A stretch of DNA of 64,000 nt from Zootoca vivipara. Lineage: Eukaryota. The notes under the pieces were generated by a model that saw only the letters and a program-made list of their open reading frames with translations, was not told where the DNA came from and searched no databases. How positions within the stretch are numbered: position 1 is the stretch's first letter; every line of letters starts with the position of its first letter. Below, in pieces: positions 2,947 to 63,382 of this stretch. Made by a program: the position numbers and the translations under genes. The stretch lies in NCBI RefSeq assembly GCF_963506605.1, contig NC_083282.1, positions 45,136,001 to 45,200,000 on the forward strand, in the 5' to 3' direction.

Positions 2947-3998
2947 TACTGGACCACTCCATGAGACAGACAATTCAAATTTCCCTTGCAAGTTTAAGTT
3001 GCAAGACAAAAACCGTACTTCCTGACCATATTACATTTTATAGACAAAACATTACAAGTCTGAGGAGATAAGACTGCCTCAGGAAATCAGCCAATCTTGC
3101 AACCTTCCCTTTTTACTGACTGGATTAGTTTCTCATGCACCTTTAGTTCTGGTCAATAAGAAGAATTGAACTGTGTCCCTTGCCACTTTTTAATTACAAG
3201 GATTAAGGCTGCAGGACCTTGGTCTATGGTATGAGTAACCCATTAATGTCACTGAACTCTTACTTTCTCACTCTCACTCTCACTCTTTCTCTTATCTTGT
3301 CCAATGGCATAGCAATACATATTACTTGGAGCAGATGTGGGAGTGGCATAAGCTAAGTTCTCTATCTACATGGTCCACTGTTAATTGAGGTGAAGAAGTT
3401 TAACAAGTTTTCTGCATGGCCGTTTTACCTACTCAAATTTTGATTTGCTGCAGACATTCTATATTTAATGTCTGAATACATTGTTCTAATTGCATTCCAG
3501 TTTGTGTTGAAGCTTTACATAGTATCTAGCTATTGTAAAAATTACTTCATAAAGCTAAAACCCTGGCCTAGGCTTGTGTACTATGCAGTCCTTGGTCATG
3601 CAAAATTGTGATGTTATGCTTCCTCTGGAGAAAAAAGAATAATCCTCAACTGGATTTTGCCCATATATAGAATTTATTGTGTACTCCAGTTATCTTGTTG
3701 CATTTAGTAATGACAATAATATTTAAAGCAAACTGCAGTTGAGGAGGTGTAAATAATATGGGTATTTGGGGAGAACTTACCGTAGAGGTTTCAGCTTCCA
3801 CAACAAAAGCCTTTAATGCTTGAGCTTAAGGAGAGCTGCCATATGCCCAGTTCCTTTTTCAAAGAAAAACAGAAATGTTCAGAACAAGCAATGCTTTTCC
3901 ATGTGTTTTTGATTCTGGATGTTCTGGGTCATACCCATGACAATGTAGGCCATCTGGGAAGTGCAGCTTGTGCTGAGCATGTTATTCAGCAACACATA

Positions 3999-5624
3999 CC
4001 GTGTTTCTCATATTTTAAGGCATCCCCAAAAAATAAGCCATGACAGGATTTCTAAGGGTTGGTGAAAAATAAGACATACCCCGAAAATAAGCCATGTCGT
4101 GTAGCCCCGACCGAGCGAGAGGCGAAGGCGCGGGACCCAGCAGGAGCTCCCTGCCTGCTTCCCCGAGCCGTCGCGTATCGGGGGACAGAGCCGAAGATCG
4201 GCGGGCGCTCCTTGCTGGGCTTGACAAGCCCGGGAAACAGCGCCCGCCGATCTTCGGACCTGTCCTGTGTGACAGGCGGGGGTGGGGGGGGAAGCGGAGA
4301 TCGTTCTCCGCTCTCCCCCCACCCCCGCCTGTCACCAAAGATCGGCGGGCGCTCCTTGCTGGGCTTGACAAGCCCGGCAAACAGCGCCCGCCAATCTTCG
4401 GACCTGTCCTGTGTGACAGGCGGGGGTGGGGGGGGAAGCGGAGATCGTTCTCCGCTCTCCCCCCACCCCCGCCTGTCACCGAAGATCGGCGGGCGCTGTT
4501 TGCTGGGCTTGACAAGCCCGGCAAACAGCGCCCGCCGATCTTCGGACCTGTCCTGTGTGACAGGCGGGGGGGGAAGCGGAGATCGTTCTCCGCTCTCCCC
4601 CCACCCCTGCCTGTCACCAAAGATCGGCGGGCGCTCCTTGCTGGGCTTGACAAGCCCGGCAAACAGCGCCCGCCGATCTTCGGACCTGTCCTGTGTGACA
4701 GGCGGGGGGGGGAAGCGGAGATCGTTCTCCGCTCTCCCCCCACCCCCGCCTGTCACCAAAGATCGGCGGGCGCTCCTTGCTGGGCTTGACAAGCCCGGCA
4801 AACAGCGCCCGCCGATCTTCGGACCTGTCCTGTGTGACAGGCGGGGGTGGGGGGGAAGCGGAGATCGTGCTCCGCTCTCCCCCCACCCCCGCCTGTCACC
4901 AAAGATCGGCGGGCGCTCCTTGCTGGGCTTGACAAGCCCGGCAAACAGCGCCCGCCGATCTTCGGACCTGTCCTGTGTGACAGGCGGGGGTGGGGGGGGA
5001 AGCGGAGATCGTTCTCCGCTCTCCCCCCACCCCCGCCTGTCACCAAAGATCGGCGGGCGCTCCTTGCTGGGCTTGACAAGCCCGGCAAACAGCGCCCGCC
5101 GATCTTCGGCCCTGTGCTGTGTGACAGGCGGGGGTGGGGGGGAAGCGGAGATCGTTCTCCGCTCTCCCCCCACCCCCGCCTGTCACCAACGATCGGCGGG
5201 CGCTCCTTGCTGGGCTTGACAAGCCCGGCAAACAGCGCCCGCCGATCTTCGGCCCTGTGCTGTGTGACAGGCGGGGGTGGGGGAGAAGCGGAGATCGTTC
5301 TCCGCTCTCCCCCCATCCCCGCCTGTCACCGAAGATCGGCGGGCGCTCCTAGCTGGGCTTGACAAGCCCGGCAAACAGCGCCCGCCGACCTGTGCTGTGT
5401 GACAGGCGGGGGTGGGGGGGAAGCGGAGATCGTTCTCCGCTCTCCGCCCACCCCCGCCTGTCACCGAAGATCGGCGGGCGCTGTTTGCCGGGCTTGACAA
5501 GCCCGGCAAACAGCGCCCGCGTGCACTTTATTAAAAAATAAGACATCCCTCAAAAATAAGCCATGTCGTGTTTTTTTGAAGAAAAAATTAATATAAGACA
5601 TGACTTATAATATGAGAAACACGG
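3999..5624. mobile_element. Non-autonomous Tc1/mariner-superfamily (Tc2/pogo-like) element carrying an internal tandem array
   Basis: TA|CCGTGTTTCTCATATT ... AATATGAGAAACACGG|TA (16-bp perfect TIR, TA duplication); repeated subterminal AAAATAAGMCAT motifs at both ends. Confidence 0.88.
4191..5520. repeat. GC/CpG-rich minisatellite, ~143-bp unit x 9.5, each unit made of two palindromes
   Basis: Unit starts at 4191, 4335, 4479, 4617, 4756, 4899, 5043, 5186, 5329, 5464 (periods 135-144). Confidence 0.97.
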
Positions 5625-6542
5625 TACTTCTATGGGAGGCTGCTTCTGCCTTCAGGTCTGTTTCAATGTCTTTTTTTGTTAAAATAAACCATGCTAGGAA
5701 TTCATAACGCAGATACATGACTGCATACATTTGCCAGGTCTTAGCACTAATCTTCCCACCTCCCTGTGTGTCTGGAAAAGCACACTTGTGCATGTTGGGG
5801 AAAGAAAATGCTGCTTTTCAGCAGCAGCTGCTCATGTCTTATATGTGAGTTGGTGTTCCAGAGTGTCCTCCAGTCCTGAAAGGTTTTGAGGGAGGTGGGA
5901 ATGGGAGCAGAAAATCACCTGAGTTCAAGAATACTGTATATGTCATTTTCGATCTCTGCTGTTGCATTTTGCATTTGTTTTACTTCATTTATTGGTCAAA
6001 GGAATTGCTACCAATATCTCAGAAGAGAACCACATTATCTTCAGAGTTTTCATTGTTTAATGAAGGTCTGAACTGCTTCTACATCTTAGAGCTATTTTTT
6101 TTCTTTTTAAAAAATTGCCAAATCATCCATTTGAATAGGAACTTCCACTTATGACCTATTCCAATCCACTGAAGAACAAAAACAACATATTTGAACATTG
6201 CCTACTTGCTCAAAATAACTGAGGAAAGAGTTACTAGAACAGGAGTAGATAACTTGTGGCCTTCCACGTGTTGTTGGACCTGAACTCTCAACAGCTGCAG
6301 CTGGCATAACCAGTTGTGGGTGGTGGGAGATGTTATGCAGGGTTTGAATAGTGGTGCAGTTTCCACTCCTTTTAAAATCTTCTTTATTGGGTCTTTTCTT
6401 TCATATATTAATTATGTATTTTCCTTATGTATTCTGCCCTGACAGTTCATGGAGAAGAGTCATTGTTTGAGCAGCCTAGTTTTGGATTTTAGTGTAGTCT
6501 ACTCTGAAACAGTAGACTTTATACATTTCTTGTCCAGTCATA

Positions 6543-6776
6543 CCCTGTTTCTCCAAAAATAAGATGAAGCCGTAAAATAAGACGTAGCAGGATTTTTAAG
6601 CATTCAAGGAATATAAGCCATACCCCGAAAATAAGACATAGTGATAGGCACAGCAGCAATGCCGGCCATAGCAGGAGGAGGAGAAAAATAAGACATCCCC
6701 TGAAAATAAGCCATAGTGGGGGGTTTTTTGAGGAAAAATAAATATAAGATGGTGTCTTATTTTTGGAGAAACACGG
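6543..6776. mobile_element. Short MITE related to 3999-5624, without the array
   Basis: TA|CCCTGTTTCTCCAAAAATAAGA ... TCTTATTTTTGGAGAAACACGG|TA; same AAAATAAGACAT/GCCAT subterminal motifs. Confidence 0.85.
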
Positions 6777-26160: not shown

Positions 26161-26748
26161 GGGAAGGGTCATACCTCAGTATCAGAGCACGTGTGTTGCA
26201 TGCTAAAGGGCCCAGGTTCAATCCCTGGCTTGTCTAGGGAGGGCTGAGAATGTCCCTTGACTGAAACCCTGGAGAGTCACTGACAGTCAGTGTTAACAGT
26301 ATTGAGCTAGATCAGGGGTCCCCAGACTTACCTGGCTTTGGGCCGGTGCCCGCCGCGCCGATCGTGTGGCGGGCCGGAGGGTGGGGGAGTGCGCGCCCGT
26401 GCGCATGCGCACACACACTTACTGGCGCGGTGGCGCGCTTCCAGGTCGGAAAAAGCGCCGGAAATCGTTTGTGCACATGCGTATGGGCCTCCCCCGACCC
26501 AGAAGTGCACCGGAAATGACCTCTTCTGGGTCGGGAGAGGCCCATACGCATGCGCACAAATGATTTTCGGCGCTTTTTTCCGACCTGGAAGAGCGCCGCC
26601 GCACTGTGCGCCATAAAAGCGGGCAAGGGGGTTGTCGCGGGCCGGATTGGGAGGCCAATTGGGCCGCATCTGACCCGCGGGCTGTAGTCTGGGGACCCCT
26701 GATCTAGATGGACCAAAGGTCTGACTCAGCCTTGACAGCTTCTTGTGC
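26161..26748 (+). mobile_element. tRNA-derived SINE split by a nested hAT MITE
   Basis: Head ...CCAGGTTCAATCCCTGGC, body ...ATTGAGCTAGAT[insert]...GGACCAAAGGTCTGACTCAG..ACAGCTTC. Confidence 0.75.
26313..26701. mobile_element. hAT-family MITE, CpG-rich, with a long internal palindrome
   Basis: 16-bp TIR CAGGGGTCCCCAGACT / AGTCTGGGGACCCCTG; 8-bp TSD AGCTAGAT / ATCTAGAT. Confidence 0.9.
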
Positions 26749-36011: not shown

Positions 36012-39000
36012 CCCTTCATGGATCAATGCCTTGTCGTGGCGAAGGGGCTTGAATAACTCAGAGAAGCTATGAGCTATGCCATGCAGGGCCACCCAAGATG
36101 GACAGGTCATAGTGGAGAGTTTTGACTAAACGTGATCCACCTGGAGAAGGAACTGGCAAGCCACTCCAGTATCCCTGCCAAGAAAACTCCATGGACAAAG
36201 ACAACAGGCATATAAAAGTTATGACGCTGGAAGATGAGCCCCTCAGGTCGGAAGGCGTCCAACATGCTACTGAGGAAGAGCGGAGGACAAGTACAAGTAG
36301 ATTCAGAGCTGATGAAGCGGCTGGGCCAAAGCCGAAAGGACGCTCAGTTGCGGATATGCCTGGAAGCGAAAGGAAAGTCCGATGCTGTAAAGAAAAATAT
36401 TGCATAGGAACCTGGAATGTAAGAACCATGAGTGGAGGTAAGCTGGATGTGGTCAAAAATGAGATGACAAGAATAAATATCAACATCCTGGGCATCAGTG
36501 AACTAAAATGGAAGGGAATGGGCGAATTCAGTTCGGATGACTATCATATCTACTACTGTGGGCAAGAATCCTGTAGCAGAAATGGAGTGGCCCTCATAGT
36601 CAACAAAAGAGTGGCAAAAGCTGTAATGGGATGCAATCTCAAAAATGACAGAATGATCTCGATACGAATCCAAGGCAGACCTTTTAACATCACAGTAATC
36701 CAAGTTTATGCACCAACTACCGGTGCTGAAGAAAGTGAAATTGACCAATTCTATGAAGACCTACAACACCTTCTAGAAATGACACCAAAGAAGGATGTTC
36801 TTCTCATTACAGGGGATAATAAGAGATAAAAGGAACAACTGGCAAGTTTGGCCTTGGAGTTCAAAATGAAGCAGGGCAAAGGCTAATAGAGTTCTGTCAA
36901 GAGAACAAGCTGGTCATCACAAACACTCTCTTCCAACAACACAAGAGACGACTCTACACATGGATATCACCAAATGGGCAGCATCGAAATCAGATTGATT
37001 ATATTCTCTGCAGCCAAAGATGGAGAAGCTCTATACAGTCAGCAAAAACAAGACCTGGAGCTGACTGTAACTCAGATCATCAGCTTCTTAAAGCAAAATT
37101 CCAGCTTAAACTGAAGAAAGTAGGAAAAACCACTGGGCCAGTAAGATACAATCTGAATCAAATCCCTTATGAATACACAGTGGAAGTGAGGAACAGGTTT
37201 AAGGATTTAGATTTGGTGGACAGAGTGCCTGAAGAACTATGGATGGAGGCTCGTAACATTATACAGGAGGCAGCAATGAAAACCATCCCAAGGAAAAGGA
37301 AATGCAAGAAAGCAAAATGGCTGTCCAACGAGGCCTTACAAATAGCGGAGGAGAGGAGGCAAGCAAAATGCAAGGGAGATAGGGAAAGATACAGGAAACT
37401 GAATGCAGATTTCCAAAAAACAGCAAGGAGAGACAAGAGGGTCTTCTTAAATGAGCAATGCAAAGAAATAGAGGAAAACAATAGAATGGGGAAAACCAGA
37501 GATCTGTTCAAGAAAATTGGAGATATGAAAGGAACATTTCGTACAAAGATTACCATAATCAAGGACAAAAGTGGTAAGGACCTAACAGAAGCAGAAGACA
37601 TCAAGAAGAGGTGGCAAGAATACACAGAGGAATTATACCAGAAAGATATGGAGGTCTCGTACACCTCTGGTAGTGTGGTTGCTGACCTTGAGCCAGACAT
37701 CTTGGAGAGTGAAGTCAAATGGGCCTTAGAAAGCATTGCTAATAACAAGGCCAGTGGAAGTGATGATATTCCAGCTGAACTGTTTAAAATTTTAAAAGAT
37801 GATGCTGTTAAGGTGCTACACCCAATATGCCAGCAAGTTTGGAAAACTCAGCAATGGCCAGAGGATTGGAGAAGATCAGTCTACATCCCAATTCCAAAGA
37901 AGGGCAGTGCCAAAGAATGCTGCAACTACCGCACAATTGCGCTCATTTCACACGCTAGCAAGGTTATGCTTAAAATTCTACAAGGCAGGCTTAGGCAGTA
38001 TGTGGACCGAGAACTCCCAGAAGTGCAAGCTGGATTTCGAAAGGGCAGAGGAACCAGAGACCAAATAGCAAACATGCGCTGGATTATGGAGAAAGCTAGA
38101 GAGTTCCAGAAAAACGTCTACTTCTGCTTCATTGACTATGCAAAAGCCTTTGACTGTGTCGACCACAGCAAACTATGGCAAGTTCTTAAAGAAATGGGAG
38201 TGCCTGATCACCTCATCTGTCTCCTGAGAAATCTCTATGTGGGACAAGAAGCTACAGTTAGAACTGGATATGGAACAACTGATTGGTTCAAAATTGGGAA
38301 AGGAGTACGACAAGGTTGTATATTGTCTCCCTGCTTATTTAACTTATATGCAGAATTCATCATGCGAAAGGCTGGACTAGATGAATCCCAAGCCGGAATT
38401 AAGATTGCTGGAAGAAATATCAACAACCTCAGATATGCAGATGACACAACCTTGATGGCAGAAAGCGAGGAGGAATTAAAGAACCTTTTAATGAGGGTGA
38501 AAGAGGAGAGCGCAAAATATGGTCTGAAGCTCAACATCAAAAAAACCAAGATCATGGCCACTGGTCCCATCACCTCCTGGCAAATAGAAGGGGAAGAAAT
38601 GGAGGCAGTGAGAGATTTTACTTTCTTGGGCTCCTTGATCACTGCAGATGGTGACAGCAGTCACGAAATTAAAAGACGCCTGCTTCTTGGGAGAAAAGCA
38701 ATGACAAACCTAGACAGCATCTTAAAAAGCAGAGACATCACCTTGCCGACAAAGGTCCGTATAGTTAAAGCTATGGTTTTCCCAGTAGTGATGTATGGAA
38801 GTGAGAGTTGGACCATAAAGAAGGCTGATCGCCGAAGAATTGATGCTTTTGAATTATGGTGCTGGAGGAGACTCTTGAGAGTCCCATGGACTGCAAGAAG
38901 ATCAAACCTATCCATTCTTAAGGAAATCAGCCCTGAGTGCTCCCTGGAAGGACAGATCGTGAAGCTGAGGCTCCAATACTTTGGCCACCTCATGAGAAGA

Positions 39001-39218
39001 GAAGAATCCTTGGAAAAGACCCTGATGTTGGGAAAGATTGAGGGCACTAGGAGAAGGGGACGACAGAGGGCAAGATGGTTGGACAGTGTTCTCGAAGCTA
39101 CGAACATGAGTTTGACCAAACTGCGGGAGGCAGTGCAAGACAGGAGTGCCTGGCGTGCTCTGGTCCATGGGGTCACGAAGAGTCGGACACGACTAAACGA
39201 CTAAACAACAAACAACAA
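36012..39218 (+). mobile_element. Full-length BovB (RTE clade) LINE
   Basis: 5' GCCTTGTCGTGGCGAAGGGGCTTG; APE endonuclease (IGTWNVRTM, LGISELKW, QVYAPT, IDYIL, SDH); RT (QGCILSP, YADD); 3' CACGAAGAGTCGGACACGACT followed by (CAA)n-like tail; TSD ATGTTTGC at 36004-36011 and 39219-39226. Confidence 0.97.
36122..39204 (+). pseudogene. BovB endonuclease/reverse transcriptase ORF broken by one small deletion/frameshift at ~36818
   Basis: First frame is open to ..VLLITGD; second frame is open 36823-39204; the expected WNAKVGSQ after GD is missing. Confidence 0.88.
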
Positions 39219-45929: not shown

Positions 45930-46396
45930 AATGGGAAGGCTGTATCTCCTGTTATATTGGCCTTTGAAAATACTTGTCCACATATAATAGAGATAAGATT
46001 GTTATTCTGTCTTCAGTCTTTAACAATTGGTACTGCATTCCCCTCTAATGGTCTATGCAGAATGCAGCTCAAAGCAGTAAAATGTTGACTTAGAGAAAAG
46101 ATTTTGGATGAACATGAGGAGTTAGAGATCATATCAATCCTTAGATTACTGTAAACACAATTTATTGGTACTAATATTCTATACTAGACCTTTACTTCCT
46201 ACTTATGTTGCATAAAAAATATTTGGATCTCAATTGATACAGAATTCCATGTGAGTTCATACATTTCCAAAGTGTGGGGTTTTGTGGAAGACTGAACAGA
46301 ATGTCATATGTACATTGGTGATCTTTTTCTGTATCATTCTAATCCTGTCACTAGCAACATTCTTTAAGTCTGATTTTCTTTTTCTCTCCATTTTAG

Positions 46397-47403
46397 GTTT
46401 ACTAGAGAGGGGACAAGGATTAAAAAGGCTAAGTTCACTGGATGACAAGATTCCACCTAAATCACCCCGTCCACGGCGCAATATCTGGCTATCACGCAGT
46501 CAGTCAGACATATTCTCTCGCAAACCTTGCTGCAAGATAAATGTTCAGGACCCCTACTATACACCAAGCAAAGGGGCAAATCGGAAAGTCAATCCTTTCA
46601 ATTCTAGGGAAGACTTGAAAGGTGGGAAGGTCAAATTTTTTGATTTGCCAAGCAAATCTGTTATATCACTTGTATTTGACTTGCACTCGCCGGAGGCAGA
46701 AGGATGTCTGAAGATGAACCAGACCCCATTCCGGCAGACTTCTAACACTGACTGGCTGGACTCCTCTTTTCTTCCTGCAAGACGGAGCAGATCACTTCCA
46801 GGATCTCTTGAATTTGTGCATAAAGATTATAGAACATTTGGGGATCTCTCTTCAACCATTGGTAGATGTGATCCCAGCCAGCTGGGGGCTGAAATGCGGC
46901 AGAAGCTACTGAGCAGCAGTCAGTATGGAGTGTCTGAGATTCCTCCTTTTCAGGCCAAACATCATAGGCAGGACTTGCCTTCTCCTCCTCTGCAAGAGGA
47001 GGAGATGGACTATTCTGATGGACTGGAGCCCCAAGATGAAAATGGGTACTGCCCTGTAAATTTTGCTAAGGAAGCAGAACTCGGAAAGCCCAGGGGGCAA
47101 GTTGCCCAGAATGTAGATGGTATCTTGGCACATAATTTAGACCATTCAGAAAATAGATCCTCAGAGATGTTTATGAGCTGCATCTCCTCTGAAGATATGG
47201 AAGTTGAAGATGAAACTCAAAGGAACATGCCTTCCACTAGGTCGGAGTCTTCCAAACTATTGTTCAGTGTTAACCCTTCCCCACAGTCTGGCAGAGAAGC
47301 CTCTCTTTTTGAGGCAGTGGATAGTGACATCTCAAATCTTGTTTCTCTGCCATCTTCAAATGCACCAGCATCAGTATGCGAGCAATCAAAATGTGACATT
47401 TAA
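46397..47403 (+). CDS. TESK2: TESK2 last coding exon (C-terminal regulatory tail)
   Basis: ttttag|(G)LLERGQGLKRLSSLDDKIPPKSPRPRRNIWLSRSQSDIFS..KVNPF..REDLKGGKVKFFDLPSKSVISLVFDL..RRSRSLP; stop TAA at 47401. Confidence 0.96.
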
Positions 47404-53901: not shown

Positions 53902-54678
53902 CTACTTACTAGCCCAAGCCAATTTCATCTTCTGGCTGTGAGCTTTGGAGGATTTAGAAAACAAACTTTTCACTATCTGAAGGGGGACAGACTTCCCACT
54001 GAGGTACACTTTGTTATGGCAGTCCGGCAACCAAGGCCCTTCACTTGAGTCTTTGTGTTCATCATTTTTGAGCATATGAACGTAGGCAATAATGTAACCT
54101 GTCATGAAGGCATCAAAGCCAGCCCGGTGAATACCACCCTCTGAACAGCCAGGCACTGGTGCCACTGGGTTCTGGGTGCCAGACAAAGCTGTTACTACAG
54201 AAGCACACTCTATCTGGACTTTTGGTCCTGATCCTTCAGTCCCTGCTGCCCTTTGTTGTGGCCCATCTTTGGATGGTGATAAAGTGATGCCCTCATTGTC
54301 TGTGGCACTGGCTTGTTCTTCATCCATCTTGGTATCAGATGCCGTGTCAGAGCCTAGTTCTCGTTCCACGTCCATTGAACTCTCCTCATTACTGGATACA
54401 GCTTCTGTGCCTGCAGAATCTACAGTAGGAGCAACCATGTTGCTTAAACAAGACTGCTTGGATGGGGGACCATCCTCCATATTGCAAGCCGCCTCTCCTT
54501 CCTTCTCAGGTTTTCTTAACGCAGGTTCCTTTGAAGGCTCTACAAAATTCTTCCGATGCTTCCACTTCTGCTTTCTTTTCTTCCGCTTGTCCTCTTTGTG
54601 GTTCTCATCTTCATTAATTATTAGGTCAATGTTGTGAGACTGTGAACACTTCAATCCATCTGGGCACCAGCCATAGGC
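53902..54678 (-). CDS. TOE1: TOE1 last coding exon (777 bp): CCCH finger end, basic NLS, final DEDDh motif
   Basis: ctgcag|AYGWCPDGLKCSQSHNIDLII..KRKKRKQKWKHRK..GIHRAGFDAFMTGY..HNKVYLSGKSVPL..stop. Confidence 0.96.
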   Translation of the reverse strand, partial: AYGWCPDGLKCSQSHNIDLIINEDENHKEDKRKKRKQKWKHRKNFVEPSKEPALRKPEKEGEAACNMEDGPPSKQSCLSNMVAPTVDSAGTEAVSSNEESSMDVERELGSDTASDTKMDEEQASATDNEGITLSPSKDGPQQRAAGTEGSGPKVQIECASVVTALSGTQNPVAPVPGCSEGGIHRAGFDAFMTGYIIAYVHMLKNDEHKDSSEGPWLPDCHNKVYLSGKSVPLQIVKSLFSKSSKAHSQKMKLAWASK

Positions 54679-54745
54679 CTGCAGGGGGGAGAGAGAATCA
54701 TTAGAACACTTGAGAAAATATCACTGGATCTTAGATACCCTACAG

Positions 54746-54880
54746 CAGTGATTCTCAAACTTGGGTCTCCAGGGTCTCCAGCTGTTGCTGGACTACAGCT
54801 CCCATCATCCCTAGCTAGCAGAACCAGTGGTCAGGGATGATGGGAGTTGTAGTCTAACAGCTGGGGACCCAAGTTTGAGA
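54746..54880. mobile_element. Palindromic hAT-like MITE
   Basis: TCTCAAACTTGGGTC / GACCCAAGTTTGAGA; GACTACAGCTCCCATCATCCCT / AGGGATGATGGGAGTTGTAGTC. Confidence 0.7.
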
Positions 54881-55332
54881 CTTTCAACATTAACTTCTGG
54901 ATATTTACCACATTTGTGAGATTATGCCATGCTAATTAACTAGAAAATAGCAATGTTAAAGACTATTCTGGATCACCCAAATCAAATATACTGGACTAAT
55001 TGGGCCTTTAGCCTGATCTAGCAGGTCTCCTGTGTTCCCTAGTAAGCTCCCAGATACCCTCATTATTAAAAGGTAGCACATCTCCATTTTTATCAGAAAG
55101 CTGCAGAAAGAGGTACCATGCTTTAAAATTCACCATAATGCCAGGAGAAGCATTTGCCTCCCACTGCTGCGCACACACCCAGCCCAAGAGCCTCTCTCTC
55201 ATCCTACCGGTAGACATATTGTCCTCACAGTCCCTATCTGAGAATATCCACCACACTGAATGAACTATTTACAATTTACTATTGTAAATGTCAAATTCTA
55301 TTTGACAGAAGGTAGAGAGAAGTAATACTTAC

Positions 55333-55507
55333 AGAAAACGTTTGACAGATGGTGACTTTGTTTGCAGGGTCAAGCCCAGATTGGCTGGCATCTGACAGGG
55401 AACAGAAACGATAATCGATGTAGGAAGCTATGCTGTCTGGGTAGTTGCAGAACTCTATGCTGAGGTGCTGCTTTTCTGAATTCTTCAACCTGTAGTTGTC
55501 TCGCTTG
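55333..55507 (-). CDS. TOE1: TOE1 coding exon (175 bp)
   Basis: ttccag|(C)KRDNYRLKNSEKQHLSIEFCNYP..IDYRFC..ICQTFS|gtaagt. Confidence 0.94.
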
Positions 55508-56365
55508 CTGGAAGGCAAGAATAGCATTAGAACCTGGAACAGAGGCTGTGTCAGAGCAAGGAGATCAACTGCCCTTCGGGACAGGCTCCTCTATGTATTC
55601 ATAGAAAAGCCCCCTGCATGTAGAAAAATGAGCTAAAGCGGAAATAAGAATATAAAAGATACATAGCATTGCCTTTTAGAAGAGAAGCACAGACACATGA
55701 AAATGCTATCAGCACAACTGCTTGTTTCCCTGACTGGCAGCGATACCTGGAACACCATAACAGGGTATGAGCATCTTCCCAAACTAGTATTTTTCTCTAA
55801 GCAGAAGGCAAACCTCTCATTTGATTATTAGAATCAGGGAGTGAGGAAACAGAAAAGGGAAGAGAAAAACCTGAGGAGTTGTTTAGTCAGTTCTGCACAT
55901 TTCTACTAGTTTCTTCTGCTAGTAGCCAAGGACAACATGAAAAACCCTACCCCTTCATTCTGCTGCCACAGAGAACTTAGTCAGGAGCCACCCTCTATTG
56001 CATTAGACAGACGAGACTGTTGCAGTCTCTTTTTCAATATATTTTCTGATATACTGTATGCAAAGAACTTTTGCTTCATGCCACATTTTGAAGATACCGA
56101 AAATTGAGTGACAATCCTCCTTGCTGTATTTTAGTGTTTTAAAGGCACAACATGGAATGCGACTGACCCTTCATCTCTTGGGTCCTCTGGATGTGCCAAA
56201 GGAGTAGAGTTCGTGGAGACCATAAATTATGGCTAACTGCCAAGGCCAGTCAAAATTTTGTAGACTGGAATTAAGTAAAATGCATTACTCAGAATCCAGG
56301 CTCTAGTATCAAATAGGAGATTTCAGTCTCCTAAGCAGTACAAAGAAATGCAACTCATCTTCATT

Positions 56366-56590
56366 ATACATCTTTAGGCACCAGGTGAAAACGTTCCTCT
56401 TCAGCCAGGCCTTTGTCTGATTGACATCCGATGCCCTTTAATATGGGTTGTGGAAGGGGCGCTTATTGGTTTGTTTTTGTTCATATTTCTATCATGTATT
56501 TTGTGTTTTTTATATTGAATTTTTATGTTGTGAACCACCCTAAGATCTACAGGTATAGGGCAGAATACAAATTTAGTAACAAGAATAATT
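56366..56590 (+). mobile_element. L2-like LINE 3' end remnant
   Basis: TTTAGGCACCAGGTGAAAACGTTCCTCTTCAGCCAGGCCTTTG ... GTGAACCACCCT..GGGCAG..AAAT tail. Confidence 0.55.
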
Positions 56591-57209
56591 TAAACTCAAA
56601 GAATTTCTGCTGAAAGCTGTAGCAAGAGAACAACCTGAGACAAATGGCAGGCAAGTACATGCATGTGTTTGTACATGAGTTTGTAGTGGAGCCTGGGGTT
56701 TAATTGAATCACAATTAAGATTTAACTGAATCACAGTATTTGCCCAAAATGCACATAAATAGAATAACCTATATGGAAAGTAATGGAAGTCACTAACTGG
56801 ATATGGTATTCATACTTCTTGTCCTCTACCTACTCATTCATACCCAAATCAGACCTGTTCCAGTAAAAATAGAAGAGCAGCAGCCTTGGACCCAGCAGTT
56901 GTATTCTCCTTACTTAAAGCCCAGGAGCAGCATTCAATGATGTATGCCTGCTTACCCAACAGAAATCAGCCTGTGCAATGGAACTTCCAAATTCTATTCT
57001 ACCTCCCACACCCATGTGCTCCCAAAACCTGGTCCCTCAAATCTCCAGAGTAGATTTTGGGAGTACATGGGGAGGTGAAAGGGGGAGGGGAGGAAGGAAA
57101 AGCTTTGTTATGTGAGCAGGCAAATAAATGTCCACTTGTGCTATGATGGATCTCAGCCCAAGAATCCTCGTCAGGGTGCTTACAGCTTGATCTGGCAAGA
57201 GATACCTAC

Positions 57210-57469
57210 CATTTCTTGTAGGCATACTCTAGGTAAGAAGCCACAAAACGTGCCTCAAATTCGGAAGCATACTTGGTGTCATAGATGCCAGCTGGGAACA
57301 TCTCTGAAAGATCAGCAGTGAAGGTGCCCAAATTGTCAGGAAGGTGAGCATAAAAGCACTGGTACAGGAAAACCAAATCAATTAGGCCATTATGCAGAAT
57401 GAGTGGCTTTCTGGCTCGGATCAGTTCCAGGAAAAAAGTACGGACAGTCTGGCTGTGGTTTTCATTTCC
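57210..57469 (-). CDS. TOE1: TOE1 coding exon (260 bp)
   Basis: caacag|[57 protein letters not shown]|gtaggt. Confidence 0.97.
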
Positions 57470-58311
57470 CTGTTGAAAGAGCAGAGAGGGGGTAAGGTTA
57501 GCTAGCCTCATTTCCAAAGCCTGCACTAGTTTCTCTGATATGGGAACAGCCTAGATGAAGATGAGCCTCAGCAGTGTTGGGCGGTCACTGCAGGCAAAGG
57601 CAGCAGAAGTAAATGCAAAAGGAAAGAGGATGGCATTGATTACCTGGAGTTCCCTTCACCTGTTATGATGGTACAGGTCTACAGGCCAAATTCTGCCACT
57701 GCTTATGGATTCATGACCCAGGTCCTAGGGCAGAAGCACCACACCTAGTTTTCGCTGAAGTACAACCTAGAAAAGGCAGGATGCCCACCACCACTCTCTC
57801 CTGTACTCTAAGCAGAGATGGTGCTTTATTCATCTACCAGAACTGTCAGATGAAAGTACGGGACATTTACCACCCCACCAGCTCAGGCCCTGGTTTGTGT
57901 TCCCATGCTTATTTCTGCAAGGCCAGTTCTCCTCCAGCTCAGTGGTGAAAACAGCTCTGCCTGGCTCCCAGGCTTGTTTTAGCAACAGGCAAATCCCAGG
58001 TGCTTCCTTTCTGTGGCTGCTAGCAGACTGACTCTTCCACAGAAGCTCCACAGAACTACTTTGACTAGGTGGTGGCCATGTTGGTGCAACACCAATTCAG
58101 CCCCATGACACTGAAGTGTAAAATGGATTGTGGGTTGTTAATTTATGTTAATGGTGTTAATAAAGGTTTTTAAAATATACATGTGGATAATTTTGATTAG
58201 CAAAAGAAGTGTGAAATGCAAATGAAGCCAAGCAGGTATTTAGAAAGAAACAAGTTGCTTTCTCATTGTGGTCTCACCTCAATTATACCTTACAGTAAAG
58301 AGTCCCCATAC

Positions 58312-58470
58312 CTTGTCATTGCCTCTGTGATAAGGAATGCCCTGAGAATACTGCTTGTTGAAGTCAAAGCCATGTTGCACCAGGAACTGAACTGACTGTG
58401 GTTCAATGATATAATCCTCCATACAGAGCAAGGTCAGGTTGTAGATCTGGGAGAGGTACGTGTTCTCTGA
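58312..58470 (-). CDS. TOE1: TOE1 coding exon (159 bp)
   Basis: ttgcag|[53 protein letters not shown]|gtatgg. Confidence 0.97.
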
Positions 58471-58701
58471 CTGCAAATACAGGCCAGTTCATAGAAATTG
58501 AGAGCAGCACAGAAAAAGTGCAAACAGTAACATCCTAGAAATCAGCAACTACTTCCTTTATTGTCTAGAGTCAATGCTGGTCACTTTATGCATCACTCTA
58601 TGCATTGAAGACTGAACCTTCAATATACAATCCTCTTATAAGCCACACATTCTTAACTCAGCAGTAGAATTAGGGTGAAAGCCAGACAATGAGCACTATA
58701 C

Positions 58702-58798
58702 CTTATCAGGAAGATGTTTGAAACAAGCAATTCCTAGAGACAAAATGGAGCGTGTTCTGGCAGCACCGCAAACAGATTTGTATCGTTCTTCAATACAC
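58702..58798 (-). CDS. TOE1: TOE1 coding exon (97 bp)
   Basis: ccacag|(Q)[32 protein letters not shown]|gtatag. Confidence 0.96.
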
Positions 58799-59229
58799 CT
58801 GTGGGGAGAAGCCTCAGGCAGCTTAGTAAGAAATTTAGACCACTGAACCATAGCTTCCCTATTGACATGACAAATTTCACCTTCCCATTCAAGATTGAGA
58901 CCAGCCTGAGTTTTGAAGCATATTAATAGCATGTGGGCCTGTTCCCCGCAGCTTGCATATTTCCTGCCCTCAAATAACCGATTACTCCAAATGGGCAAGC
59001 ACATCTTAAACCATCCACACCCACACAGAGTCAATGAACTGCTTCCACTGTGAATCCCAATAGGTCCAACTAGTATCTGGTATTGAGTCAGGGGGAAACA
59101 AAGACTCCTGAAAGTATTGGCAGACACTTCACCATGCTGTCCATACTCTAGGACCTAATAGTTCAGAACAACAAGAATGAGAACATCATGCTTCAGAAAG
59201 GACTCATACAGAAGCAGCACATTACTTAC

Positions 59230-62046: not shown

Positions 62047-63150
62047 GTGCTTGGGTTACAAAAAGATATTTTCATCAGCGTAGGATGAAAGAAAATTGAA
62101 AGGAATTGTTTGAACCTGTTTTCAGGATCAGTTACTTTGTGGTAACAGCTATTGAACTCCCCTCAACTTTTTAGCTGGCTATGCATTCAAAGACTGAATC
62201 AGAAGCTAAAGTTACAAATATCTCAGATTTAATGCATCACTGATTCCTCAAACTGTCTTTGGGATAGATGGGGTATTCCTTATGAAGGAATTAGAAAATG
62301 TCTAGAGATGCTTGGCCAACAACACATAATCTGAAAACTTGTACCTTCCTTGCCTTCATTCTTGTAGCATTCTTCGACCCAAATTTATTTGGTGACCTTT
62401 TTTTAAAGTTTTAATTGAAACTTGTGGAGTCAGAAAGTATTCTGTTTTAGGATAGTGTGACATAAGCAGACACAGTGCTTGTTGTCTAGTTTGCCGTCAT
62501 AGGAGCTCATCTTCCTACTTTGAATTTGTGTGATACAGGGAAGTGGAACTTCCAGGCTGGGGTCCAAATATGATCCTCCAAGAATCTCTGTCTAGCCCAT
62601 AGGACCCTCCCCAGGCCACACAACCTTCTGAGCCCCGCTGCTCATCAACCCTGCTTTGCATCCTTCTTAAGTGTTTTTGCTGGCTAGAATGTGTCCTGAA
62701 AAGGCTTCTTGCTTGAGTTAGATGGAACATAGAGAAGAATGCTTGAGTGTGTAAAAAAAGTAGCCTACTGCACAAAAGCAAAAATCCACATTTATTGCTC
62801 TCTGCCCACATTTGGCTCTAGCCCTGCCCACCATTGGCATGTGGCCCCAAGAAGGTTGCCTAGAAGGGAATGCGGCCCTTGGGTTGAAAAAGGTTTCCCC
62901 AGCCCTGGAAGAATGACGTGGACAAAGGAGATAACTGCTGAGGACTTCTATTTCTGAGGTTAACATAAAGAGCAGATCTTTGGGAAATATTTGTAGAGGG
63001 GTATGCCAGTAGGACTGCTGTTCTTCAACTGTCTATCAAACACGTATTCCCCTCTGGCCCAGCGCAGGTTTATCCACTGGCATGTATTTTTTTACAACTT
63101 GATAGAAATTCCCACTCCAAAAATTTATAACTGGCCTCTCTTTGTTGCAG

Positions 63151-63272
63151 GAGTGCCCAGCCAACAGTCTTCATTCCACACCTTCAGCAATGTAGCTGAA
63201 ATCAAAGAGTTTCGGAAGAGGCTGCTCACTTGGTACAACAAATGCAAACGAGATCTTCCTTGGAGGAAATTG
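63151..63272 (+). CDS. MUTYH: MUTYH coding exon (122 bp)
   Basis: ttgcag|(G)VPSQQSSFHTFSNVAEIKEFRKRLLTWYNKCKRDLPWRKL|gtatgg; MutY RDLPWR motif. Confidence 0.95.
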
Positions 63273-63382
63273 GTATGGCATATTGAGCTGGGCTTCTAGG
63301 ATGCTCAGAAATATCTCAGAAGAGAGAGACAATTGTTTTGCTGTGTCCTGTTCCCTGAAGTCCCCTGTTCACTCTTTTACAG

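What the first reader, a model, noticed from the sequence alone, without database searches (positions are those of the whole stretch)
3999..5624. DNA-transposon shell carrying a tandem array of double-hairpin ~143-bp units
Seen: perfect 16-bp TIRs with TA duplication enclose 9.5 units. Each unit has hairpin A (CCGAAGATCGGCGGGCGCT..GGGCTTG-A-CAAGCCC..AGCGCCCGCCGATCTTCGG), a short linker, and hairpin B (TGACAGGCGGGGGTGGGGGG..AGCGGAGA-TCGT-TCTCCGCT..CCCCCCACCCCCGCCTGTCA), giving about 19 consecutive stem-loops. CpGs are almost undecayed in an otherwise CpG-poor intron, and unit length is close to one nucleosome wrap. Known: some MITEs and Helitrons carry internal tandem arrays and seed satellites. 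Inference: this is a young mobile satellite seed or portable CpG island. Inside TESK2 pre-mRNA it could form serial ~65-nt hairpins of pre-miRNA size, and in DNA it could form cruciforms or G4. It is the best candidate here for an undescribed element.
Basis: partly seen in the sequence, partly recalled or inferred. Interest (0 to 1): 0.75.

Follow-up and report, generated by a model that had tools for sequence, protein, structure and literature searches.

The report
Transposon carrying a captured hairpin array
A gene-less jumping element in a lizard intron is one of over 200 recent copies that carry a variable run of double-hairpin repeats, which it most likely took over from another transposon family that had once jumped into it; it is a clear case of how repeat arrays arise and spread, with no sign that the hairpins serve the host.

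Summary
In detail: 3999-5624, TA on both sides, 9 full 135-144-bp units plus a partial tenth. The genome has 247 exact left ends, 201 exact array/right-end junctions and 3,157 hairpin-A cores; 82 array-bearing copies read carry 2-38 hairpins A, and 17 of 81 share long unit orders with one copy, so the array moves as cargo. Intact 431-aa DD35D pogo (Passer-type) transposase genes have the same ends. The site is empty, with one TA, in two related species and probably in some conspecifics. New here is the origin: the unit sits in 0-4 copies inside an older Tigger-type element; one locus keeps that element's end at a TA inside a Passer shell; four intermediates and a tree link it to today's family. 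MITEs with internal arrays are known (miDNA4, DTC84); this scan noted a similar hairpin-array transposon in another genome. Dfam/Repbase could not be checked.

The parts
3997..3998 (.). Left TA of the target-site duplication
   Evidence: the empty site in organisms B and C has one TA
3999..4023 (+). Left terminal inverted repeat (16 bp perfect, 23 of 25), Passer-type
   Evidence: first 28 bases equal the left end of the intact transposase element L131
4024..4093 (+). Left subterminal region with three AAAATAAG(A/C)C motifs (4030, 4066, 4084), likely transposase-binding sites
   Evidence: Motifs; 86% to L131 over 93 bp; binding role inferred
4094..4147 (+). Remnant of the Passer 5' interior
   Evidence: Element bases 1-151 are 90-92% identical to transposase-bearing L129 and L130
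4148..4190 (+). Tigger-derived piece: right half of a third hairpin (C) plus leader, joined to the Passer part by a deletion
   Evidence: junction compared with L192
4191..5520 (+). Tandem array: 9 full units (hairpin A, 11-nt linker, hairpin B) and a partial hairpin A; Tigger-derived
5521..5599 (+). Passer right subterminal region with two AAAATAAG motifs (5535, 5553)
   Evidence: (last 100 bp 92% to L131)
5600..5624 (-). Right terminal inverted repeat
5625..5626 (.). Right TA of the target-site duplication

Best explanation
This is a recent copy of a gene-less, TA-flanked DNA transposon family of over 200 copies whose ends match intact pogo (Passer-type) transposase genes in the same genome, which likely move it by cut-and-paste, and whose hairpin array was most likely inherited from a Tigger-type element that once inserted inside it. 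Shown: family, ends, empty sites, cargo-like movement of whole arrays, and the intermediates. Inferred order: (1) a Tigger-type element with a chain of GC-rich hairpins (D, C, leader, A-B repeated up to four times) inserted at a TA in the 5' interior of a Passer element; (2) a deletion removed the Tigger left end; (3) a second deletion joined hairpin A to the Passer right end; (4) a third removed the Passer 5' repeats, D and half of C, giving today's leader; (5) the A-B unit then gained and lost whole units, probably by slippage during replication or repair of the excision gap, where the hairpins would stall and misalign synthesis; (6) several long versions were copied many times by the Passer transposase in trans. 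The hairpins behave as neutral passengers.
For: Family: 247 exact left ends, 201 exact right junctions; 83 of 83 leader-bearing elements have TA on both sides. Cargo: 17 of 81 other array-bearing elements share 7-23 consecutive identical units with L052, on several contigs; three pairs of whole elements are identical. Partner: of five transposase elements fetched whole, three have a 431-aa ORF; L131 and L133 are 99.97% identical over 3,473 bp; D174-D278-D314, spacing 35; DDE_1 and HTH_Tnp_Tc5. Empty site: contigs of organisms B and C run from the left flank through one TA into the right flank. Origin: of 30 loci found with the hairpin-C query, 5 have Passer ends and most others CAGTGG-type ends; CAGTGG-type ends also flank transposase genes of the CENP-B_N + HTH_Tnp_Tc5 + DDE_1 kind. 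L225 holds Passer left end, the same chimeric junction, Tigger interior, the Tigger right end, TA, then 56 bases 55/56 identical to the Passer interior of L130. Tree of 25 cassettes: four Passer intermediates sit inside the Tigger-I group beside L195 (96/98); cassette identity 97% among intermediates, 91% among Tigger-I. The junction pattern occurs 4 times in the genome.
Against: No transposition assay; the 431-aa protein's activity on these ends is inferred. The left end beyond base 95 is closer to L129/L130 (L129 internally deleted, L130's longest ORF 328 aa) than to the intact L131 group, so the mobiliser need not be the direct parent. No locus with a complete Tigger element inside a Passer was found. 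No intact transposase with exactly the Tigger-I ends was seen in the 10 loci checked. The tree rests on 288 columns, left out 5 of 30 loci and has no outside root beyond the Tigger-II group; the clade of four intermediates has 93/88 only. The window's own array shares at most 2 consecutive units with any other copy, so its direct donor was not found. The mechanism of unit gain is not shown.
Confidence: 0.85

Rival explanations
1. Same family and mobility, but the cassette passed from Tigger to Passer by template switching or ectopic recombination between two separate elements, not by nested insertion and deletions.
For: The left junction has only about 2 bp of shared sequence with a shared GCTGG nearby, as repair-time switches would leave.
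Against: L225 keeps the whole Tigger right end followed by TA and by Passer interior that in L130 follows a TA: the mark of an ordinary insertion.
Confidence: 0.08
2. The array is kept because it works: as a source of hairpin or small RNAs, or as an unmethylated CpG island that changes nearby genes.
For: Hairpins of 65-67 nt are very stable. One RNA run has reads over the unit (depth about 15-20) and across unit-unit joints, with a strand bias of 16:3 and 17:2. The rarest variant classes show no CpG excess (ratios 0.97 and 0.53).
Against: 0 compensatory double changes against 1,162 one-sided changes; paired and unpaired sites change alike, 1.65 and 1.5 per site. CpG sites carry recurrent C>T/G>A variants, 20 of 26 against 6 of 48. 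No Rfam family reaches its gathering score among the 150 of 180 matches shown. No RNA read lay on this locus's flanks in either run (6% of each run read), so the reads come from unknown copies. The site is empty in relatives.
Confidence: 0.04
3. The family has already seeded a free satellite, collapsed or missing in the assembly.
For: Arrays reach 38 hairpins A, 5.6 kb; one copy read has lost its left end and one the start of its left repeat; this route is described for miDNA4 and Tetris.
Against: 3,157 hairpin-A cores and 3,119 hairpin-B cores with up to 2 mismatches against about 3,400 expected from the complete set of 28 exact left ends on contig C1, 26 with arrays.
Confidence: 0.03

Closest known systems
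miDNA4 (Tc1/mariner MITE of Xenopus tropicalis with an internal satellite motif)
   Same: Non-autonomous ITm-group element whose internal motif occurs as one monomer or as a variable array (passages of PMC12628747 and PMC9659126 read; the original paper not read).
   Different: The model there has the MITE capture a pre-existing tandem repeat and later lose its ends; here the donor is another transposon family, the intermediates are present, the unit is two long hairpins, and no free satellite is seen.
DTC84 (Donax trunculus tandem-repeat MITE, PMC3879986, abstract read)
   Same: Ordered array of unit variants, copy number varying between copies, a palindrome in each unit proposed as hotspot for length change.
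   Different: Up to five units, AA putative duplication and a microsatellite; here up to about 37 units, TA duplication, a pogo partner with matching ends.
Passer (PS) family of the pogo superfamily (PMC7386202 and PMC9976928, passages read)
   Same: The partner has DD35D, TA duplication, ends under 30 bp, 431 aa, 3.5-3.9 kb; database relatives occur in bats, frogs, a spider and a leech, groups named for Passer in those papers.
   Different: The window's element encodes nothing; the word 'tandem' does not occur in PMC9976928.
Tetris (Drosophila virilis foldback, PMC4079207, abstract read) and Xmix/Xstir (Xenopus, passages in the two reviews)
   Same: Internal tandem repeats of a non-autonomous DNA transposon as building blocks of arrays.
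   Different: Tetris repeats lie in the terminal repeats and did yield kb-size satellite arrays; here the array is central and stays inside shells.

Membership tests
Non-autonomous TIR transposon (MITE-like) | Terminal inverted repeats | tested here: met
   16 bp perfect, 23 of 25
Non-autonomous TIR transposon (MITE-like) | Target-site duplication shown by an empty site | tested here: met
   One TA in organisms B and C; TA both sides in 83 of 83
Non-autonomous TIR transposon (MITE-like) | No transposase gene; many dispersed near-identical copies | tested here: met
   Only stop-poor frames across the repeat; 247 exact left ends
MITE in the strict sense | Short (about 400 bp in PMC9659126) and uniform length | tested here: not met
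   213-5,598 bp, median 16 hairpins A
Passer (pogo), for the partner element | DD35D catalytic triad | tested here: met
   D174, D278, D314 (triad assigned by motif)
Passer (pogo), for the partner element | TA duplication, short ends, 400-500 aa, 1.6-4.0 kb | tested here: met
   (3,473-3,898 bp; L132 is 4,992 bp with an insertion)
Passer (pogo), for the partner element | BrkDBD plus HTH_Tnp_Tc5, or HTH_Tnp_Tc5 alone | tested here: met
   HTH_Tnp_Tc5 found, BrkDBD not found up to E 10; PMC7386202 allows the single form
Passer (pogo), for the partner element | Placement in the Passer clade of a DDE tree with reference sequences | not tested
   No labelled reference set in hand; nearest named hit 'pogo transposable element with KRAB domain', 86%
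Tigger (pogo), for the donor element | Ends shared with a Tigger transposase element | tested here: inconclusive
   CAGTGG-type ends flank transposase ORFs in L232, L235, L236, L239 and the related L231 protein has CENP-B_N + HTH_Tnp_Tc5 + DDE_1, but none has the exact Tigger-I ends; pogoR shares that domain set; the label Tigger is partly recalled
Satellite DNA | Long arrays free of transposon ends | tested here: not met
   Counts match shells; assembly only
miRNA precursor cluster | Defined 21-23-nt products with a star strand | not testable with these tools
   No small-RNA run listed; no Rfam match at gathering score among those shown
CpG island (functional) | Unmethylated in germ line | tested here: inconclusive
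   Indirect only: recurrent CpG decay 20 of 26 vs 6 of 48 sites, ratio 2.95 at one threshold but 0.97 and 0.53 for rarer classes; no CpG deamination among 19 differences in the youngest subfamily

The most novel reading that the evidence does not exclude
Lizard pogo-type elements share a travelling pool of GC-rich hairpin modules that pass between transposon families by nesting and trimming; when one shell ages, the cassette survives by moving into a shell whose transposase is still active, and the hairpins themselves drive array growth at each excision, so longer arrays are being made in the living population.
Probability: 0.3. Interest if true: 0.62.

Novelty: new variant of a known kind. 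Interest (0 to 1): 0.42.

Why it matters
Models for the birth of satellites inside transposons usually lack the first steps. Here donor, nested intermediate, trimmed intermediates, short and long arrays and a candidate active transposase lie in one genome, and insertions appear to segregate, so the rate and mechanism of unit gain per transposition can be measured, also in cell culture, since Passer transposases from fish are active in human cells (PMC9976928). The copies are also presence/absence and length markers. It does not point to a host function.

Tried and rejected
Assembly artefact: rejected, since identical unit orders recur on different contigs and RNA reads cross unit-unit joints. 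Rfam: only generic hairpin matches below gathering scores. A-to-I editing: no excess of A>G in run X21 (2 of 20 places); not informative without matched DNA. No RNA holder was listed among indexed runs. Run X18 (organism D) ends at 3992 and says nothing about the site. L053 first looked like a long array-free copy; it is a 213-bp deletion derivative followed by a sister element. My first idea, that hairpin A arose from the Passer 5' repeats, was dropped when the Tigger-type donor appeared. One search miscounted (sister elements overwrote two rows); one search replaces it. One search failed and was rerun. Literature: five searches on the kind, lizards or composite origin listed no description of this family; two narrower ones returned nothing; PMC10058329 has no passage on Tigger, TIRs or tandem repeats. 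Dfam, Repbase and subscription papers were not searchable, so 'undescribed' is unproven. Supplements of the Passer and pogo papers were not read and may list this transposase. Look-up by sequence in the scan's notes found nothing.

Full report
Observation. The element spans 3999-5624 with TA on both sides. Its ends are inverted repeats, 16 bases perfect and 23 of 25, with five AAAATAAG(A/C)C motifs further in. The array 4191-5520 has period 143 and 9.4 copies: nine full units and a partial hairpin A. One unit folds into two stem-loops with z -13.6. CpG observed/expected is 0.85 against 0.22 elsewhere in the window. Kinase exons at about 93 and 12891 on the + strand bracket it; the gene name TESK2 rests on recalled motifs. 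The host is a lizard, probably lacertid, judged from the nearest database protein of the partner transposase.

Family. The 1.44-Gb genome has 247 exact matches to the left 31 bases and 201 to the array/right-end junction. I read 85 distinct regions. With the window they gave 83 elements with both ends and the leader, 82 with an array; five regions were set aside: two sister elements without the array, one with an altered leader, two with a damaged left end. All 83 have TA on both sides; hairpin-A number runs from 2 to 38 (median 16) and length from 213 to 5,598 bp. The first 40 regions were the best BLAST hits and lean to the youngest copies; the 28 exact left ends of contig C1 are a complete set, 26 with arrays. 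Seventeen of 81 other elements share 7-23 consecutive identical units with L052, and three pairs are identical end to end. Whole arrays therefore move with the shell and then gain or lose whole units. In that subfamily 16 of 367 units depart from the common types, by 19 substitutions: it is very young.

Age at this site. Contigs of organisms B and C, about 96.6% identical in the flank, run through a single TA into the sequence that follows 5627: an empty site, which confirms the duplication. No contig of B, C or D lay on 4125-4334 at 88% likeness (a hole in contigs proves little). Among three conspecific runs laid on the right flank, the flank contig of X8 goes on for 1,098 letters before the TA without fitting the element's end, that of X9 for 10, and that of X3 stops exactly at the TA. 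I read these as empty, empty and probably heterozygous; this is inferred from record coordinates, since the loose letters of those records were not shown.

Partner. A DDE_1 search gave 96 matches. Among 50 loci examined, five have our right end; fetched whole, they are TA-flanked elements of 3.5-5.0 kb, three with a 431-aa ORF, one with 416 aa and one interrupted; L131 and L133 differ at one base in 3,473. Their ends match the window's element at 86% over 93 bp (left) and 92% over 100 bp (right). The protein has HTH_Tnp_Tc5 and DDE_1 and D174-D278-D314, the DD35D pattern that PMC7386202 and PMC9976928 give for Passer (passages read). Relatives L129 and L130 match the first 151 bp at 90-92%. 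These elements carry their own tandem arrays: 88 and 79 bp in L131, about 101-105 bp in L141 and L145, 158 bp in L121, so a 143-bp unit is no sign of nucleosome fitting.

Origin of the unit. One short copy (L179) has a third hairpin, C, of which today's leader keeps half. Searching with it gave 30 loci. Five have Passer ends; four of them read Passer left end, Passer 5' repeats, hairpins D and C, leader, (A-B)n, Passer right end. Most others have different ends beginning CAGTGG and hold the same order with few units; one such family (Tigger-I here) has 20 matches to its end pattern, with 0-4 units in those mapped. CAGTGG-type ends also flank transposase ORFs of another kind, hence the label Tigger-type; no ORF with exactly these ends was seen in 10 loci. 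In a tree of 25 cassettes (five left out as rearranged or truncated) the four intermediates lie inside Tigger-I beside L195, support 96/98, and are 97% alike against 91% for Tigger-I. L225 completes the series: Passer left part with the same chimeric junction (514 of 527 bases equal to L192), Tigger interior, the Tigger right end, TA, then 56 bases matching the Passer interior of L130 at 55, where L130 has a single TA. That is what a nested insertion followed by deletions leaves. The chimeric junction occurs four times in the genome with at most one mismatch.

Function tests. Satellite: 3,157 exact hairpin-A cores and 3,119 hairpin-B cores with up to two mismatches against about 3,400 expected from shells; no surplus. 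Structure: in 1,121 units no compensatory change and 1,162 one-sided changes outside the G/C tracts; paired and unpaired sites change at 1.65 and 1.5 per site. CpG: variants seen at five or more loci hit 20 of 26 CpG sites and 6 of 48 other C/G sites; the event ratio is 2.95 for variants under 1% but 0.97 and 0.53 for the rarest classes, and the youngest subfamily shows no CpG deamination. This fits methylated DNA too young to have decayed, but methylation was not measured. RNA: run X21 (6% read) has depth about 15-20 over the unit, reads across joints with strand bias 16:3 and 17:2, and none on the flank; X22 has at most a few reads on the last unit. Some copies are transcribed at low level; which, and why, is open. 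Rfam gives only sub-threshold hairpin matches. The best fold of the whole array is a long-range foldback, not a row of hairpins.

Comparison. Non-autonomous DNA transposons with internal arrays are known: miDNA4 and Xmix/Xstir in Xenopus (review passages), DTC84 with ordered variants and palindromes (abstract), Tetris (abstract). The element works like these. It fails the strict size mark of a MITE and the free-array mark of a satellite. What differs is a traceable hand-over of the repeat from one pogo-type family to another, with intermediates, and a unit made of two long hairpins. Composite transposons formed by nesting are known in general (recalled, no call). Searches listed no description of this family; Dfam and Repbase were not available.

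Verdict. Real, young, probably still segregating; mechanism of movement well supported, origin by nested insertion likely, host function unsupported. New variant of a known kind; interest 0.42.

Noticed in passing
window 6543-6776: A short sister element with the same kind of ends and no array, 0.9 kb downstream; similar 230-bp elements lie in L053 and L143.
   Followed up: partly
window 26313-26701: GC-rich, internally palindromic element with CAGGGGTCCCCA ends and a near 8-bp duplication (7 of 8), hAT-like by recall, in another intron of the same gene.
   Followed up: partly
window 36113-39204 and 807-2216: An RTE/BovB-like LINE with long open frames (238 and 793 aa) and an L1-like fragment; family names recalled.
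   Followed up: no
L158 and L169: Pairs of family copies in opposite orientation 2.3 kb and 1.1 kb apart; the L158 pair is identical over 3,031 bp, suggesting local hops and possible large inverted-repeat structures.
   Followed up: partly
unit positions 20-21: A linked two-base switch CC/GT (655 and 460 of 1,121 units; 2 true intermediates); GT makes the left arm of hairpin A match the right arm, as template switching would do.
   Followed up: partly
L204-L220 (Tigger-II group): An older family with other CAGTGG-type ends holds modules D, C, leader, A and B-like in both orientations and varied order: a shared pool of hairpin modules.
   Followed up: partly
L131, L133, L135; L115-L123: Two groups of apparently intact, near-identical 431-aa Passer-type transposase elements, candidates for current activity.
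   Followed up: partly
P0002-P0015: Close relatives of the transposase (70-79%) in bats, frogs and a snake, patchy enough to suggest horizontal transfer; several are fused to host gene models.
   Followed up: no
window 46255-47403 (+), 53902-59154 (-), 62997-63299 (+): Last exon of the kinase gene, a CAF1-domain gene on the opposite strand and an exon resembling MUTYH, the TESK2-TOE1-MUTYH order by recall.
   Followed up: partly
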